Virus record (IMG/VR): IMGVR_UViG_3300025635_000112
Span: 1-31,078 of that record
DNA length: 31,078 nucleotides
DNA from: a virus
Lineage: Duplodnaviria > Caudoviricetes
Direction: 5' to 3' (one strand)
The notes under the pieces were generated by a model that made no database searches, was not told the origin of the DNA, and saw nothing but the letters and a program-made list of their open reading frames with translations. This document shows, in pieces, positions 16,807-27,312 of the stretch (position 1 is the first letter of the stretch; each line of letters opens with the position of its first letter). Both the position numbers and the translations under genes were made by a program.

Positions 16807-17313
16807 ATGAAAAAAATAATAATTCTTATACTTGCAATCGTCGCTCTAAATTATGTAGTCGACGTGAGGCAAGAGAGGGCAATCGAGAACCTTAAAAATC
16901 TAAGCAATGAGTCCGACGATAGCGTATGTGGTTTGCGCGACGTCGTGTGTGCCGGTGAGACAAAGACAGCCGACGCAAAAATAAACACACAAAAAACCAC
17001 GAAGGCAAGTTGGTACCATTACGAAATTAACGGCCAGCGTTGGAGCGAGAATCACCGCACCGCCGCAAGCCGGGAGTTTCCAAGAGGCACTATGGTAGAG
17101 GTAACTAACAAAGCGAACGGTAAGACCGTGCAAGTCCTAATAAATGACTTCGGCCCTGACGCTAAAGTACACCCCGACCGAGAACTTGATTTATCGTGGT
17201 ATGCGTTTTCACAAATCGCAGACCCTAGAGTCGGACTCATTGAGGTTGAGTACCATGCAATCGAAGGCGACGGAAATTATAAGCCGGAGTTTGCATGGAC
17301 TGGAAAGAAGTAA
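16807..17313 (+). CDS. RlpA-like double-psi beta-barrel lytic transglycosylase with signal peptide
   Basis: ASWY...TAASREFPRGTMVEVTNKANGKTVQVLINDFGP...RELDLSWYAFSQIA; MKKIIILILAIVAL. Confidence 0.88.
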   Translation: MKKIIILILAIVALNYVVDVRQERAIENLKNLSNESDDSVCGLRDVVCAGETKTADAKINTQKTTKASWYHYEINGQRWSENHRTAASREFPRGTMVEVTNKANGKTVQVLINDFGPDAKVHPDRELDLSWYAFSQIADPRVGLIEVEYHAIEGDGNYKPEFAWTGKK

Positions 17314-20829: not shown

Positions 20830-21089
20830 TTGATACAAAAAACAGGCTTGGCCAGACTTTCGTAGTTAGCGATAGTGCGGTACTGGTCGAGACGCAGAGC
20901 TTCGGCCGAGGCACAAGCCGTACAAGTTTCTCTCGCGAGCATATAGTCTCGGTAAAACGTTTCCGTGCGGTATATGATATTCCGTTTCTTGAAAACTCTA
21001 TCGAGATACGAACCATGGACGGGCGCAAGCATACGATAAAACATTTGCGAAAGTCCGTAGCAGTGGAAGCGGAAAAAGAATTAATGTAA
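20826..21089 (+). CDS. bacterial PH-domain-like protein
   Basis: TSFSREHIVSV...SIEIRTMDGRKHTIKHL plus C-terminal helix. Confidence 0.5.
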   Translation: MIDTKNRLGQTFVVSDSAVLVETQSFGRGTSRTSFSREHIVSVKRFRAVYDIPFLENSIEIRTMDGRKHTIKHLRKSVAVEAEKELM

Positions 21090-21095
21090 AAAACT

Positions 21096-21599
21096 ATGGC
21101 ACTTTTTGAGGACTATGAGCAGAAGCGCCAAAACTTATTTACCAAAATACAGAGCTTGCAGGAGTTCGAGAAAAGCGACAAGGTGGTAAATCTGGTATTT
21201 GAGGTAAGCCGTCAAATCCTAGGACAGCCTAGAAATCACAGCAATGCCCCGTGGTTGCTCCGTAAAGGCTCGGAACTTATCGCCTACTACCCTTACCTCG
21301 GAGGCAAGGCTAATGAGGCGTGGGGCGAATATAAAGCCGCAGAGGTGGCGTTTAAATCGGTACGCGACGCTTTGGTTATCAGTATGGCCGCAGGCAAGGG
21401 TACAATAACCGAGGCGAAGGCGGAAGCAGGGAGAGCGAGCGTGGACGCAGAAATTGACGTTATTGCCAGAGAGCAAAGGTCAAAAAACTACGCCATGGTG
21501 GCTGATACGTGCGACCGTATGGTATCATTTATACAAAGTACTGTAAGGCAAATTGAGGCTGAAAAAGCCAAAGCCAGCCATGCAGACCGCGGTATGTAG
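21096..21599 (+). CDS. all-helical protein, weakly UvsY-like
   Basis: 167 aa coiled coil with TITEAKAEA turn. Confidence 0.4.
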   Translation: MALFEDYEQKRQNLFTKIQSLQEFEKSDKVVNLVFEVSRQILGQPRNHSNAPWLLRKGSELIAYYPYLGGKANEAWGEYKAAEVAFKSVRDALVISMAAGKGTITEAKAEAGRASVDAEIDVIAREQRSKNYAMVADTCDRMVSFIQSTVRQIEAEKAKASHADRGM

Positions 21600-21604
21600 A
21601 AACT

Positions 21605-21913
21605 ATGGGGTGGTAATGGTGTGGTCGGAAAGTCCGAGCTACACTCGGGCGCAGACTAGCAATCTTCGGGACGGTGTATTATCAGAACACTAAGCACCGG
21701 AGCTACTTACGTGATGTAAAGTTTACGGCTTCAAAATACGGAGCTATCGGGTGAAAATCCCGGGTAAATTATTTACAGAGCCAGAAGCTAACCGCTTATG
21801 TTTGGGCGCCCCCTTTGGGTTAAACTCCAAAAAATCAGTAAGCAACGTGTACACATGCTTACGTGTTGGGGAATCAAGCAACACAAGTCCGACCCATGCC
21901 ACTACCACCTCAT
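21605..21913 (+). ncRNA. putative ~310-nt multi-hairpin structured RNA of unknown family
   Basis: 21605-21629 pairs with 21888-21913 (about 24 pairs incl. G-U, one mismatch, one bulge) enclosing at least eight hairpins. Confidence 0.7.
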
Positions 21914-21930
21914 TAGACCACTCAAAAAAT

Positions 21931-22272
21931 ATGAGACCGATACCCGAAATCTTAAAGCGCGAAATGGAGCAAGACCCGTATTATAAAGCGTGCGCCCGAG
22001 AGGGAAACGACTGCAAAGGTCGTATCACTTGGGAACACGCTTTTATTTATGGCGGCAGACAAATTAACGAGAAATGGGCAATCATTCCTTTATGTGAATG
22101 GCACCACTTAGGCGGCGGTTTAGACAAGCGCATGAATGAATGGATAGCTTTAAAACGAGCGACTAATGCAGACCTCGCTAAGTACCCTGCCGAGCATTGG
22201 GTTAGAAAATTAAAGTTTCTCGATAAGAAATATAATATCCACAAGTTATCCACCGCAAAGCCTCTTTTCTGA
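21931..22272 (+). CDS. HNH-like nuclease (P1 Ref / DUF968-like)
   Basis: CAR...CKGRITWEHAF...WAIIPLCEWHH; start moved to AAAAAATATG at 21931. Confidence 0.65.
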   Translation: MRPIPEILKREMEQDPYYKACAREGNDCKGRITWEHAFIYGGRQINEKWAIIPLCEWHHLGGGLDKRMNEWIALKRATNADLAKYPAEHWVRKLKFLDKKYNIHKLSTAKPLF

Positions 22273-22301
22273 TGTTGACTCTTATTATTTCATGCTATAA
22301 T
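22235..22301 (+). promoter_or_regulatory. two DnaA-box-like sites and extended -10 promoter for the initiator operon
   Basis: ATATCCACA (22235), TTATCCACC (22246), TTGACT (22275), TGCTATAAT (22293-22301). Confidence 0.7.
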
Positions 22302-22376
22302 CATTTTACAGAGTCGACACAGAATATATGCTATGATATTTGCAAGGGAACAACTAAGACTTGCCACCCTACAAGC

Positions 22377-22415
22377 CCCCGAACGTGTCGACTTACACTC
22401 GGGGTTTTGTTTTTT
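22377..22415 (+). terminator. conditional terminator in initiator leader
   Basis: CCCCGA-AC-GTGT-CGACTT-ACAC-TCGGGG followed by TTTTGTTTTTT, 5 nt before ATG 22421. Confidence 0.65.
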
Positions 22416-22420
22416 AAACT

Positions 22421-24283: not shown

Positions 24284-24484
24284 ATGGAACAAGACCAGAC
24301 ATTAGTTTGTGTAGAGCAGGGGTGCGGTAACGAGTTTACCGTCTCTGTAAGCGAACAGAGATTTTTTACTGACAAGGGTTTGTCCCTGCCGAAGCGCTGT
24401 AAATCATGCCGCGACAGACGCAGAAATCAAGCCAATTCGCCTTTTAAGGGTCTAAAGGAGCAATACAACGCTCGGGAGGAATAA
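24284..24484 (+). CDS. zinc-ribbon protein (zf-trcl-like)
   Basis: DQTLVC...CGNEFTVSVSEQRFFTDKGLSLPKRCKSCR. Confidence 0.85.
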   Translation: MEQDQTLVCVEQGCGNEFTVSVSEQRFFTDKGLSLPKRCKSCRDRRRNQANSPFKGLKEQYNAREE

Positions 24485-24489
24485 ACCCC

Positions 24490-25020
24490 ATGGAAGCCCA
24501 AATATTGACAATAGTGCCACCTCACAAGACCCCGTGCCGTGAGGTTGTGGCCGAAGACTTTGAGAATGTCAAAGCCTTAGTGGAAGCAATGCAACTCGCA
24601 GTTAACAAAAACAGGCACTGTGTGGCTCTAGCGCACTCACAGATAGACGACAAAGAGCCCTTGCGGTTATTCGTTACTCGGGACAAGTGCTTTATAAATC
24701 CGGTAATTATTCGCCACTCGAATTATTGCACCGAAAGCCTAGAGGGCTGTATGACCTTTCCTAACAAGGAAGCAATTACAAAAAAACGCTGGAATAAAAT
24801 CGAGTTTGAATATAGGAACTTAACGCCGGAGGGCTTGAGCGAAATACAAACGGCGAGCTTATCGGGTTTCAGTGCATGGGTCGTACAACATGAAGTCGAC
24901 CATTTAAACTCAAGATATTGTTACGACGATTTGCCGAGTACGTGCATTAACTGTGGACACCCTTTGCCCGAGGGAGCGTCCGCTTGCGATGACCAATGCG
25001 AGGCAAAAATAATAAATTAA
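24490..25020 (+). CDS. def: peptide deformylase with C-terminal zinc ribbon
   Basis: VALAHSQI, FINPVI, EGCMTFP, QHEVDHLN; tail CINCG...CDDQC. Confidence 0.9.
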   Translation: MEAQILTIVPPHKTPCREVVAEDFENVKALVEAMQLAVNKNRHCVALAHSQIDDKEPLRLFVTRDKCFINPVIIRHSNYCTESLEGCMTFPNKEAITKKRWNKIEFEYRNLTPEGLSEIQTASLSGFSAWVVQHEVDHLNSRYCYDDLPSTCINCGHPLPEGASACDDQCEAKIIN

Positions 25021-25029
25021 CGAAAAAAC

Positions 25030-27312
25030 ATGACAACACGCTTTAAGAAAATCATTTCCGCCGTGGGTCTAGCCGCGCTCTTGTTAGCAGGTGTTGGTTT
25101 CCTGCCAGAAGGCAAAACCACGCACGCTAGCACCTCGGTAGAAATGCTTACGTCCTCTTGGCACTTTGTGATGAACAATGGTGCTTCTGAAAAATACCAG
25201 AGCGTAGCAGCTAACATACTCAACGGTAAAGTTAGCCTTACTCTCACGTACAACCTCAATGGGACATGTATACTAGGCGGCGACGCTTCGTATATTATTT
25301 TCGACCAGAACGGTTGGAAATCAGTTAGTCTGTACAACTACACGCCACAAAATTGTTATAACGGCGAGCAGACTGTAACTATTCCATTATCTGCTTTTAA
25401 TGGTCTAAATACGGGCGCTAACTTAACGGGCAATCCCCCATATTTCCACGCAAGGTTTTGGAAGGGTAGCGGCGGTCCTTACACGGTAGATATTACGAGT
25501 GCGAAACTCAACACTCCTAATACCGCGCCGACTGTGAGCAGTTTGTCGGCAGACCCAACTAGTGCGACCAGAACTCAAAATGTTAGCTTTTCTGCCGCTG
25601 CTTCTGACTCCGACGGCACCATAGCCTCTTACTCTTGGAACTTTGGAGACGGGGGTACAGGCTCAAGCGCAGGTGGAGCGACTGCAACAACCTCACATGC
25701 TTATACTGCTACTGGAACTTTTACAGTTACAGTTACGGCAACCGACAACGAAGGGGCAACCGATACAGAGACGACACAAGTTACTGTGGCAAATGCGCCC
25801 CCTGTAGCTTCCGCGGTAGTCGCTGACCCTACGAGCACTTACCCGGGCGCAACTGTTTCTTTTAGTACTGGTGCTACTGATGCAGACGGCACAATCGCTT
25901 CCTATGCTTGGGACTTTGGCGACGGCAACACTTCAACCAGTGGAGCAGGTGCTACCGCTACCAAGACTCATTCTTACGCTGCAAATGGCACCTACACCGT
26001 GAGCGTGGTAGTAACTGACAACGACGGTGCTACGGATACGGAAACAACGCAGGTAACGGTAAATAATGCCTCTCCTACTGTTTCCACAATTACACCGGAT
26101 ACGAACAATACCTACCCCGGTTACGTTGTGCAATTTTCCTCTGGTGCTTCTGACTCTGACGGTACGATAGCTTCGTATAGTTGGAGCTTCGGAGACGGTG
26201 GTACTGCTTCAAGCGGAGCAGGAGCCACAGCTACAGCCAGCCATGCTTATACAGCTAATGGCACCTACACCGTTACTTTGACTGCTACGGACAACCTCGG
26301 AGCAACTGGCACTAATACTGTGCAAATTGTTATCCGAGACCCGACTACTCAATGGGTTGTACAATCCTTCGACATGATGAAGTACACCAAGGACGTTGTA
26401 TGTAGCCCACCTTCTGACAGCTTCATTAATAGCTCGGTTGCAAAGGCAAAAGCTAATGGGGCTACTCACATTGCAATTTCTACCCCTTACCAAAACGTAA
26501 CTTGCGGTGGTGGTACCGGTGATTCTAATTTACTCGCAAGCCGTTGGATAACAGCAGCTCGAGCACAAGGTTTAAAAATCTGGCACAGACACCCAAACGT
26601 TAAGTTTGAGGGTATCTATAGCCAAAGCAAAGTACGAAGCCCTGACGGGTACAGGCACATAAAAGATATTACCGACTGGATAGACGCACACCCGACTTGG
26701 ATACTTCCCGGTGATATTTTTACCCCGGAAGCAGAACCACAAAACGGCGGCATAAACGGCGTTACTTATTGTGGTAGCTTATGCCAGTTCTCAAGCAAAG
26801 CTGACTTCAATGAGTGGTTAAGAATGGCGCAGTTATCAACAAAGTTAGCGATGAGAGCCAACGACATACCCGTTACTACCACATGGGGTAACACTACAGG
26901 CGTATTTGTCGGGGCATACGGTTTTGACGGTTTCGTAACATGGGGAGACAATAACGGATTTTGGCAAGGTCAAAGCCAAATTGAAACTGCCACCGTGGCA
27001 GCTATGGACAACGTTATTGCGATTGACCATTACCCTGCCTCTGGCGCAACAATGGCCGGAGACCTCGACGAAATGCGAGGAGTATTCCCAAATGCGCTGG
27101 TGGTAATTGGCGAAATCGGAACCATTAACGATACGACCGACACAGCAAGGGTTAACTCGGTGAATAACTGGTTTAACGCTTTCATAGCCAGAAACTACAT
27201 ACTTGGCGTGAACTACTGGCACCAAGGTCCAGGCGGTAACGAAGCTTTAATCAATAGCGACTTTACTAACAAACCTAGTGGCAATGCAGTAGCCGACTTC
27301 TTTAAGAACTAG
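25030..27312 (+). CDS. secreted multidomain protein: signal peptide, CBM-like domain, 3 PKD domains, clan GH-A-like glycoside hydrolase domain
   Basis: Signal ending THA; three SYSWNFGDG...HAY...G.YTV units; TPEAEP, IAIDHY, VVIGEIG, GVNYW motifs. Confidence 0.75.
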   Translation: MTTRFKKIISAVGLAALLLAGVGFLPEGKTTHASTSVEMLTSSWHFVMNNGASEKYQSVAANILNGKVSLTLTYNLNGTCILGGDASYIIFDQNGWKSVSLYNYTPQNCYNGEQTVTIPLSAFNGLNTGANLTGNPPYFHARFWKGSGGPYTVDITSAKLNTPNTAPTVSSLSADPTSATRTQNVSFSAAASDSDGTIASYSWNFGDGGTGSSAGGATATTSHAYTATGTFTVTVTATDNEGATDTETTQVTVANAPPVASAVVADPTSTYPGATVSFSTGATDADGTIASYAWDFGDGNTSTSGAGATATKTHSYAANGTYTVSVVVTDNDGATDTETTQVTVNNASPTVSTITPDTNNTYPGYVVQFSSGASDSDGTIASYSWSFGDGGTASSGAGATATASHAYTANGTYTVTLTATDNLGATGTNTVQIVIRDPTTQWVVQSFDMMKYTKDVVCSPPSDSFINSSVAKAKANGATHIAISTPYQNVTCGGGTGDSNLLASRWITAARAQGLKIWHRHPNVKFEGIYSQSKVRSPDGYRHIKDITDWIDAHPTWILPGDIFTPEAEPQNGGINGVTYCGSLCQFSSKADFNEWLRMAQLSTKLAMRANDIPVTTTWGNTTGVFVGAYGFDGFVTWGDNNGFWQGQSQIETATVAAMDNVIAIDHYPASGATMAGDLDEMRGVFPNALVVIGEIGTINDTTDTARVNSVNNWFNAFIARNYILGVNYWHQGPGGNEALINSDFTNKPSGNAVADFFKN
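25519..26337 (+). repeat. 3 x 273-bp PKD domain tandem repeat
   Basis: Units start at 25519, 25792, 26065 (91 aa each). Confidence 0.9.

What the first reader, a model, noticed from the sequence alone, without database searches (positions are those of the whole stretch)
21605..22272. ~310-nt multi-hairpin RNA closed by a long helix, abutting an HNH-like nuclease gene
Seen: ATGGGGTGGTAATGGTGTGGTCGGA (21605-21629) pairs with TCCGACCCATGCCACTACCACCTCAT (21888-21913); three of the deviations are G-U pairs, which favours a + strand RNA over a DNA inverted repeat. Inside are back-to-back hairpins: GTCCGAG/CTCGGGC (21632-21650), CGGTG/CACCG (21672-21699), TTAC/GTAA (21707-21719), GGCTTC/GGAGCT (21727-21745), CGGG-TGAAAAT-CCCG (21748-21762, T-loop-like), GTAAA/TTTAC (21764-21776), GTAAGCA/TGCTTAC (21838-21862), GTGTTG/CAACAC (21863-21884). 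It is the largest gap without a convincing gene in a tightly packed genome. A Ref/DUF968-like nuclease starts 17 nt downstream, within the recombination region. Known: HNH proteins can partner cis-encoded RNAs (IscB-omegaRNA/HEARO) and phages carry large structured RNAs (GOLLD, ROOL). Inference: an unrecognised phage ncRNA, possibly a nuclease scaffold/guide, antitoxin or protein decoy. I cannot assign a family, and the link to the nuclease rests only on adjacency.
Basis: partly seen in the sequence, partly recalled or inferred. Interest (0 to 1): 0.85.

Follow-up and report, generated by a model that had tools for sequence, protein, structure and literature searches.

The report
Stem-closed orphan RNA in phage operon
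A 309-base insert between two phage genes is predicted to fold into a many-hairpin RNA closed by a long stem that the host enzyme RNase III would likely cut to release it, but it has no known relatives and was not found beside related copies of the neighbouring nuclease gene, so it is unlikely to be that nuclease's guide.

Summary
The structure is real. 21605-21913 folds at z about -5.5 and is the best-folding of 96 tiles in this phage contig. The sense strand is favoured. The 24-bp closing helix gives most of the signal (inner part z -1.9). Five of the eight inner hairpins hold.

The nuclease partnership is not supported. None of 94 loci with nuclease relatives carries the element. Seven keep the upstream gene and the nuclease together without it, so it is a lineage-specific insert in a variable slot.

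There is no Rfam family. No homolog was found apart from the same phage and one near-identical variant, so covariation could not be tested. Resemblances to group I and II introns and RNase P stop at short motifs.

New here: an 8-nt direct repeat (21630-37, 21885-92) whose collapse leaves a clean 54-nt hairpin, suggesting 255 nt entered a hairpin loop. Long stems around unrelated cargo recur in these phages but also in controls.

Best reading (0.45): a co-transcribed, folded RNA cassette released by RNase III-type cutting of the closing stem, which also keeps the flanking stop and start 22 nt apart. Expression is untested.

The parts
21605..21629 (+). 5' arm of the closing helix; starts 5 nt after the stop codon of the upstream gene
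21888..21913 (+). 3' arm of the closing helix; ends 17 nt before the nuclease ATG
21630..21637 (+). left copy of the 8-nt direct repeat AAGTCCGA, directly after the 5' arm
21885..21892 (+). right copy of AAGTCCGA; removing the 255 nt between the copies leaves a 54-nt hairpin with a 3-nt loop (-36.2 kcal/mol)
21632..21650 (+). 7-bp hairpin with a U-G pair in second position; its 3' strand can also pair with 21887-21892
   Evidence: (P 1.0)
21715..21777 (+). 12-13-bp helix capped by a three-way junction that holds hairpin 21727-21745 and T-loop-like hairpin 21747-21763; this module resembles the insertion between the P7 and P3 strands in a family of phage group I introns
   Evidence: similarity does not extend further
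21814..21884 (+). three 3' hairpins: 21814-31, 21838-62, 21863-84
   Evidence: P 0.85, 0.97, 0.98
21096..21599 (+). upstream gene, 167 aa, no Pfam or PHROG family; lies next to the nuclease in 7 relatives that lack the element
21931..22272 (+). 113-aa putative zinc-binding HNH-like nuclease (C21, C28, E-H36, C55, H58, H59); a neighbour, not part of the element

Best explanation
The element is a 309-base insert, specific to this phage lineage, in a variable slot of a co-directional gene run; it is likely transcribed with its neighbours, is predicted to fold with its two ends paired in a 24-bp stem, and host RNase III would likely cut that stem and release a folded RNA of about 260 nt. SHOWN: the sequence, the predicted fold, its absence from relatives, the 8-nt junction repeat, no consensus promoter before it and no terminator after it. 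INFERRED: (1) origin by insertion of 255 nt into the loop of a pre-existing 54-nt hairpin, duplicating 8 nt; (2) co-transcription; (3) RNase III processing, as for rRNA processing stems and intervening sequences (known biology, recalled); (4) while uncut, the stem loops the cargo out and leaves the upstream stop and the nuclease start 22 unpaired nt apart, so the insert is tolerated. The released RNA most likely acts through its T-loop three-way junction as a tRNA-elbow-like protein decoy. This last step is the weakest and is untested.
For: Fold z -5.36, top of 96 tiles. Sense strand favoured as RNA (-5.95 against -2.61), while DNA folding is weaker and nearly symmetric (-2.99, -2.50). Insert status: 7 contigs keep the upstream gene and nuclease without it (6, plus L021), one with a 2-nt gap (L003). 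No + strand promoter-like site before it and no terminator-like site after it in 21000-22270. The 8-nt junction repeat is the longest among 29 long stems examined (next 5 nt) and occurs in 0 of 812 mismatched junction pairs. One natural variant has two inferred changes in the 3' half; both turn A-U into G-U and leave the fold unchanged. RNase III domain found in 58 of 61 genomes of the likely host phylum. Long stems in related phage loci carry more G-U than A-C on the sense strand: 32 to 17, 43 to 29. No purine-rich Shine-Dalgarno is visible before the nuclease ATG.
Against: No homolog, so no covariation. The two variant changes are weak support: 42 of 103 possible non-synonymous transitions are of that kind and only 26 of 103 would break a pair. 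The inner region alone is marginal (z -1.9). The G-U excess is borderline in the larger count (p 0.06) and could come from strand-biased mutation. The element scores only 14 on the ungapped detector and is not among the 27 stems counted. Long stems are as frequent in unrelated phages and in a host chromosome, so they do not mark a special RNA class. The host is uncertain: 3 of 13 genome loci are Patescibacteria, and one lies in a 7.9-Mb Blastocatellia contig. The helix has a mismatch and a bulge, and RNase III specificity was not tested.
Confidence: 0.45

Rival explanations
1. A DNA-level passenger: a small non-autonomous mobile element or relic, either with imperfect terminal inverted repeats or inserted into a DNA hairpin. 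The RNA fold is a by-product with no function of its own.
For: Present in one lineage only. The 8-nt junction repeat looks like a target duplication. TAGA lies on both outer flanks. Most of the folding signal is in the arms. An earlier unchecked note describes elements nested in hairpin loops in a Patescibacteria genome.
Against: Single copy in the window. No second copy in 401 genomes of the likely host phylum by DNA search or 150 by covariance model. Outer direct repeats across 26 stems are close to null (mean 3.6 against 3.2). The fold is strand-asymmetric as RNA.
Confidence: 0.25
2. A cis-acting element of the mRNA only: the closing stem, or a switch between alternative pairings, sets translational coupling from the upstream gene to the nuclease, and no RNA is released.
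For: Stop-to-arm 5 nt and arm-to-ATG 17 nt. The two genes are 2 nt apart in a relative. Three 8-nt direct repeats allow alternative pairings (p 0.013 against base shuffles). 11 of the 31 other stems listed end within 20 nt of a start codon.
Against: 12% of 309-nt windows of this genome also hold three such repeats. Relatives manage without the element. The ribosome-binding region is not inside the helix.
Confidence: 0.13
3. A stripped or rearranged self-splicing intron (group I- or group II-derived), active or dead.
For: The module at 21724-21761 matches a profile of a phage group I intron family (E 0.04 in the window; the family was selected with a pattern built from this resemblance). A P1-like hairpin with a U-G pair, a P10-like alternative pairing and a G just before the 3' arm are present. 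Weak Rfam hit to group-II-D1D4-4: 17.2 bits against a gathering score of 49, E 0.087-0.28. GUGUG at 21619.
Against: Outside the module, 76% of 400 flank shuffles score as well as the real sequence. No long-range P7 with the guanosine-site G-C pair in the required order (the 5'-first matches there are local hairpins or run outside the element). A hand-threaded P7 candidate has G-G at that site and costs 7 kcal/mol. No domain V-like hairpin on either strand. No match to four RF02003-type loci. The position is intergenic, so there is no gene to restore.
Confidence: 0.1
4. Scaffold or guide RNA for the adjacent HNH-like nuclease, as omegaRNA is for IscB.
For: Adjacency only (17 nt, same strand).
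Against: 0 of 94 nuclease loci carry it, and 73 of 80 have no room for it. The protein is a bare 113-aa domain and its relatives are of like length (which searched only 62-198 aa).
Confidence: 0.03
5. The 3' half is coding: a 60-aa N-terminal extension of the nuclease read from GTG 21751.
For: The frame is open from 21715 to 22272, and one database entry is called at 173 aa.
Against: No homolog of the extension. The single hit among 1.84 billion proteins is a sum over 15 repeats of an unrelated protein, best piece 29 bits. The variant differs at 2 of 60 residues here and 0 of 113 in the nuclease. Relatives start at the MRPIP motif.
Confidence: 0.02

Closest known systems
RNase III processing stems and intervening sequences (pre-rRNA stems, 23S rRNA IVS, T7 early mRNA sites; recalled, not from a call)
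   Same: A 20-30-bp imperfect RNA helix that brackets a cargo inside a longer transcript.
   Different: Here it lies between two phage protein genes and encloses about 258 nt of hairpins. Cleavage is untested.
HEARO / omegaRNA with IscB-type HNH proteins (recalled)
   Same: About 300-nt structured RNA directly upstream of an HNH-like gene.
   Different: No Rfam match, no co-occurrence with the nuclease family (0 of 94), and the nuclease is a bare 113-aa domain.
GOLLD and ROOL large RNAs (PMC5737381, passages read)
   Same: Structured non-coding RNA in a phage context.
   Different: ROOL averages 581 nt, lies near tRNAs and spans three phyla per that paper. This element is 309 nt, the window has no tRNA, there is no Rfam match and no homolog.
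Phage group I introns with an insertion between the P7 and P3 strands (RF00028; loci L025, L034-L057)
   Same: Hairpin plus T-loop module TACGGCT...GGAG...GGGTGAAAATCCC...TAAAT, and an upstream GGAAAGTCC in L025.
   Different: No catalytic core in order, no similarity beyond the module, not inside a gene.
Circularly permuted group II introns (PMC8637638, abstract and section 9 read)
   Same: ORF-less structured RNA with a weak domain I-like resemblance (RF02003, 17.2 bits).
   Different: Those RNAs keep D5 with the AGC triad and D6 with the bulged A at their 5' end. No D5-like hairpin was found here.
MITEs and REP-targeting insertion elements (recalled)
   Same: Small non-coding insert with paired ends and a short junction duplication.
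   Different: Single copy, no family in the collections searched, and the repeat lies inside the arms rather than outside.

Membership tests
HEARO/omegaRNA-IscB | RNA co-occurs upstream of the nuclease across the family | tested here: not met
   0 of 80, 0 of 13, L021 negative
HEARO/omegaRNA-IscB | Match to the Rfam model | tested here: not met
Group I intron | P7 with a G-C guanosine-binding pair in pseudoknot order with P3 | tested here: not met
   the hand-threaded candidate has G-G at that site
Group I intron | P1 with a U-G splice-site pair, P10, terminal G | tested here: inconclusive
   candidates exist (21632-50; 21645-50/21887-92; G21887), but no core lies between them
Group I intron | Self-splicing with GTP | not testable with these tools
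   needs a bench assay
Group II intron (canonical or circularly permuted) | Domain V with AGC/CGC triad | tested here: not met
   pattern scan of both strands; no RF00029 hit at E up to 10
Group II intron (canonical or circularly permuted) | Domain I similarity and a GUGYG 5' end | tested here: inconclusive
   RF02003 17.2 bits, under the gathering score of 49; GUGUG at 21619 lies inside the closing helix
RNase P RNA | Match to RF00010; conserved regions with the P4 pseudoknot | tested here: not met
   no match at E up to 10; a profile from five loci (four correctly excised RNase P RNAs, one mis-cut) did not hit the element
GOLLD / ROOL / other Rfam large RNAs | Rfam match | tested here: not met
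tRNA / tmRNA | ARAGORN or Rfam call | tested here: not met
MITE | Multiple copies with shared terminal repeats | tested here: not met
   host genomes sampled, true host not known
MITE | Target-site duplication outside the repeats | tested here: inconclusive
   4-nt TAGA on both flanks, within the null range
RNase III-processed stem-closed RNA | Sense-strand helix of about 20 bp or more, and RNase III in the host | tested here: met
   24 bp; enzyme domain in 58 of 61 genomes of the likely host phylum
RNase III-processed stem-closed RNA | Cleavage within the stem and a discrete product | not testable with these tools
   no suitable RNA data
HNH / Ref / DUF968-like nuclease (neighbouring gene) | Family or fold match | tested here: inconclusive
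   no nuclease Pfam hit in 34 members; conserved Cys/His pattern; Atlas neighbours carry HNH 23% and HNHc_6 38% / DUF968 15%; fold search never ran

The most novel reading that the evidence does not exclude
A compact mobile ribozyme of a new or rearranged group I-like type that inserts into the loops of RNA/DNA hairpins. Its guide strand 21644-21650 swaps between the left junction (U-G pair at 21633/21649) and the right junction (after G21887), so it splices or circularises out and reseals the host hairpin.
Probability: 0.07. Interest if true: 0.85.

Novelty: new variant of a known kind. Interest (0 to 1): 0.4.

Why it matters
If it is expressed and released, it is an uncatalogued phage RNA of about 260 nt with a T-loop junction, probably from a phage of Patescibacteria. 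It would show how phage operons take up non-coding cargo without breaking gene coupling. The junction repeat gives a cheap, sharp test for a new self-excising RNA. Against this, it is a singleton without covariation or expression data, it is not a nuclease guide, and long stems of this kind are common in the control DNA, so present interest is moderate.

Tried and rejected
HOMOLOG SEARCHES, ALL NEGATIVE.
- blastn: phages, three 32-nt chance hits; plasmids, none.
- Exact patterns in viral contigs: 0; 4 hits, none homologous; 2, none; 24, all a group I intron family by eye, with Rfam confirming 2 of 18 tested at the module and a third elsewhere in its locus; 61, none, the best (L169) reading as coding by eye. 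The window's own record is withheld from these scans, so they had no positive control.
- Metagenomes: 3 hits, one the same phage at 100% and two inside a coding gene.
- Species genomes: 0.
- Whole records: 20 phage records by DNA gave three short hits; one 26-nt hit (E 0.003) lies in the syntenic slot of L021 inside a small ORF and is taken as chance. 50 of the 80 related phage records by model gave one hit (E 6e-4) inside a protein-coding gene. 34 unrelated phage records gave none. 401 host-phylum genomes by DNA gave two short chance hits; 150 and 5 by model gave none.
- The model covers only 21620-21800 and rests on one sequence, so remote relatives can be missed.

EXPRESSION. No RNA holder listed. 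Four runs labelled RNA-Seq were probably DNA and gave only scattered contigs. Neither says anything on expression.

IDEAS DROPPED. RNase P (motif resemblances recalled from memory). Group II and permuted group II. Group I relic beyond one module. Hammerhead core absent. A clade-specific class of stem-closed cassettes (controls as rich; 32 cassettes share no sequence beyond coding cargo and one tandem copy; none of those in 9 loci is an Rfam family). Conserved pairing in the DPBB gene (1 of 4 homologs).

TECHNICAL. A first inverted-repeat screen missed the element itself and a second was swamped by GC-rich DNA; neither is used for counts. The fold search of the nuclease model never ran, and a PDB sequence search gave nothing meaningful.

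LITERATURE. Searches showed no description of this element. Only listings and abstract starts were seen, except PMC8637638 (abstract, section 9) and PMC5737381 (10 passages). Their supplements were not opened and could hold an unlisted motif.

Full report
CONTEXT. The window is a 31-kb linear fragment of a tailed phage: tail tube, tape measure and replication initiator genes. The best-matching DNA runs are freshwater and wastewater metagenomes. Three of 13 species-genome loci with nuclease relatives are Patescibacteria, one in a 113-kb contig. The rest are scattered, including one in a 7.9-Mb Blastocatellia contig. The host is therefore probably, not certainly, Patescibacteria.

THE OBSERVATION. 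The segment 21600-21920 folds at -114.7 kcal/mol, z -5.36, with none of 100 shuffles as stable. It is first of 96 tiles across the window. The closing helix has 24 pairs, 3 of them G-U, one A-C mismatch and one bulge. As RNA the + strand gives z -5.95 and the - strand -2.61. Without the arms the values fall to -1.9 and +0.2. As DNA the strands are alike (-2.99, -2.50). Three are replaced by longer-range helices, chiefly a 12-13-bp helix 21715-26/21764-77 capped by two hairpins, one with a T-loop-like UGAAAAU loop. Rfam gives nothing at gathering score and one weak hit, group-II-D1D4-4 at 17.2 bits. ARAGORN finds nothing.

THE NUCLEASE IS NOT A PARTNER. The 113-aa protein has 326 relatives of similar length, a conserved Cys/His pattern, a confident model (pLDDT 91) and HNH/DUF968-labelled neighbours in the Atlas. 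No nuclease Pfam family matches it and the fold search never ran. None of 80 viral loci holds the RNA by nhmmer or by a covariance model of 21620-21800. Neither do 13 genome loci or L021. In 73 of the 80 an ORF ends within 150 nt of the nuclease start; six have larger gaps with unrelated sequence and one is cut off. Seven contigs keep both flanking genes without the element, one with a 2-nt gap. The element is an insert in a variable slot.

NO HOMOLOGS. Five DNA pattern scans of viral contigs, one of metagenomes and one of species genomes, blastn of phages and plasmids, and model or DNA searches of related phage records and host-phylum genomes found only the same phage (L031, 100%); counts are in Tried and rejected. 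One database protein spans the 3' half in frame and differs at two residues. The simplest base changes are A21841G and A21892G, both A-U to G-U, and the fold is unchanged. About four in ten possible changes are of that kind, so this is consistent but weak. The open frame over the RNA has no protein relatives.

RESEMBLANCES TESTED. A pattern hit (L025) is a group I intron (100.5 bits) that shares a hairpin-plus-T-loop module. A pattern built on that resemblance returned 24 loci of the same intron family, and their profile hits the element at E 0.04. With the module fixed and the flanks shuffled, 76% of 400 shuffles score as well as the real element, and no proper P7 exists. Permuted group II introns keep D5 and D6 (PMC8637638, section 9); no D5-like hairpin is present. 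RNase P motifs that I recalled did not hold up against RF00010 or RNase P RNAs from likely hosts.

WHAT IS NEW. AAGTCCGA occurs directly after the left arm (21630-37) and across the start of the right arm (21885-92). Removing the 255 nt between the copies leaves a 54-nt hairpin of -36.2 kcal/mol. Among 29 long stems this is the only junction repeat above 5 nt, and 0 of 812 mismatched junction pairs reach 8. I noticed the repeat before designing this test, so the null is generous. It points to insertion into a hairpin loop or to an exchange of pairing partners.

RELATED STEMS. A sequence-blind screen found 20-28-bp stems around unrelated cargo in related phage loci: multi-hairpin segments, whole small ORFs, an HNH endonuclease-like ORF and a tRNA-like RNA. 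At score 16 or more there are 27 in 1.45 Mb against 4 and 1 in shuffles. There are also 18 in 0.79 Mb of unrelated phages (several from one tandem array; null 6 and 7) and 12 in 0.40 Mb of a host-phylum chromosome (null 1 and 1). The element itself scores 14 on that ungapped detector. Sense-strand G-U exceeds A-C by 43 to 29 (p 0.06) and 32 to 17. These stems are a common architecture, not a family.

MECHANISM. No + strand promoter-like site precedes the element and no terminator-like site follows it, so co-transcription is likely. A 24-bp sense-strand stem is the kind of substrate RNase III cuts (known biology, recalled), and 58 of 61 genomes of the likely host phylum encode the enzyme. I commit to a stem-closed cassette that is tolerated because stop and start stay 22 unpaired nt apart, and that is released as a folded RNA, most likely a T-loop-bearing protein decoy (0.45). 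Rivals: functionless DNA passenger (0.25), purely cis-acting element (0.13), intron derivative (0.10), nuclease guide (0.03), coding extension (0.02). Transcription, cleavage and any target are inferred, not shown.

VERDICT. A real, uncatalogued, lineage-specific structured insert. The attractive nuclease link is not supported. Interest 0.4; the ribozyme reading (probability 0.07) would merit 0.85.

Noticed in passing
window 16905-17242 (+): A second long inverted repeat (27 pairs) inside the DPBB/RlpA-like gene brackets the domain-coding part and shares AGTCCGAC with the element's right arm. One of four homologous genes (L109) has a different long-range helix at a similar place.
   Followed up: partly
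window 22273-22420 (+): Leader of the replication initiator gene: promoter-like sites, AGTCGACAC/GTGTCGACT pairing that competes with a terminator-like hairpin, third-best folding tile. It looks like an attenuator and shares TACACTCGGG with the element.
   Followed up: no
L066:5945-6281: 337-nt multi-hairpin non-coding element closed by a 21-bp stem, z -7.3 on the sense strand, no Rfam match at gathering score; same architecture as the finding, no detectable sequence similarity.
   Followed up: partly
L137:2842-3041: tRNA-like element with a D-arm-like start, a T-arm split by an inserted hairpin and an acceptor stem extended to 21 bp; no Rfam call at gathering score.
   Followed up: partly
L144:14333-14904; L150:9021-9423; L102:15181-15597; L105:302-769: 22-28-bp inverted repeats that bracket whole ORFs almost exactly, including an HNH endonuclease-like ORF in L144 (named by eye).
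   Followed up: partly
L074:5468-5636; L085:14654-14831: Stem-closed segments holding short hydrophobic ORFs, reminiscent of type I toxin mRNAs with 5'-3' pairing (read by eye).
   Followed up: no
L034-L057, L025: Family of phage group I introns with a conserved T-loop-containing insertion between the P7 and P3 strands; most escape the Rfam gathering score (3 hits in 18 loci).
   Followed up: partly
window 24284-27312: Treble-clef protein, peptide deformylase and a 760-aa protein with three PKD domains in a small phage.
   Followed up: no
L079:13712-13956: Stem-closed element followed by a diverged tandem copy, a possible place to test covariation.
   Followed up: no
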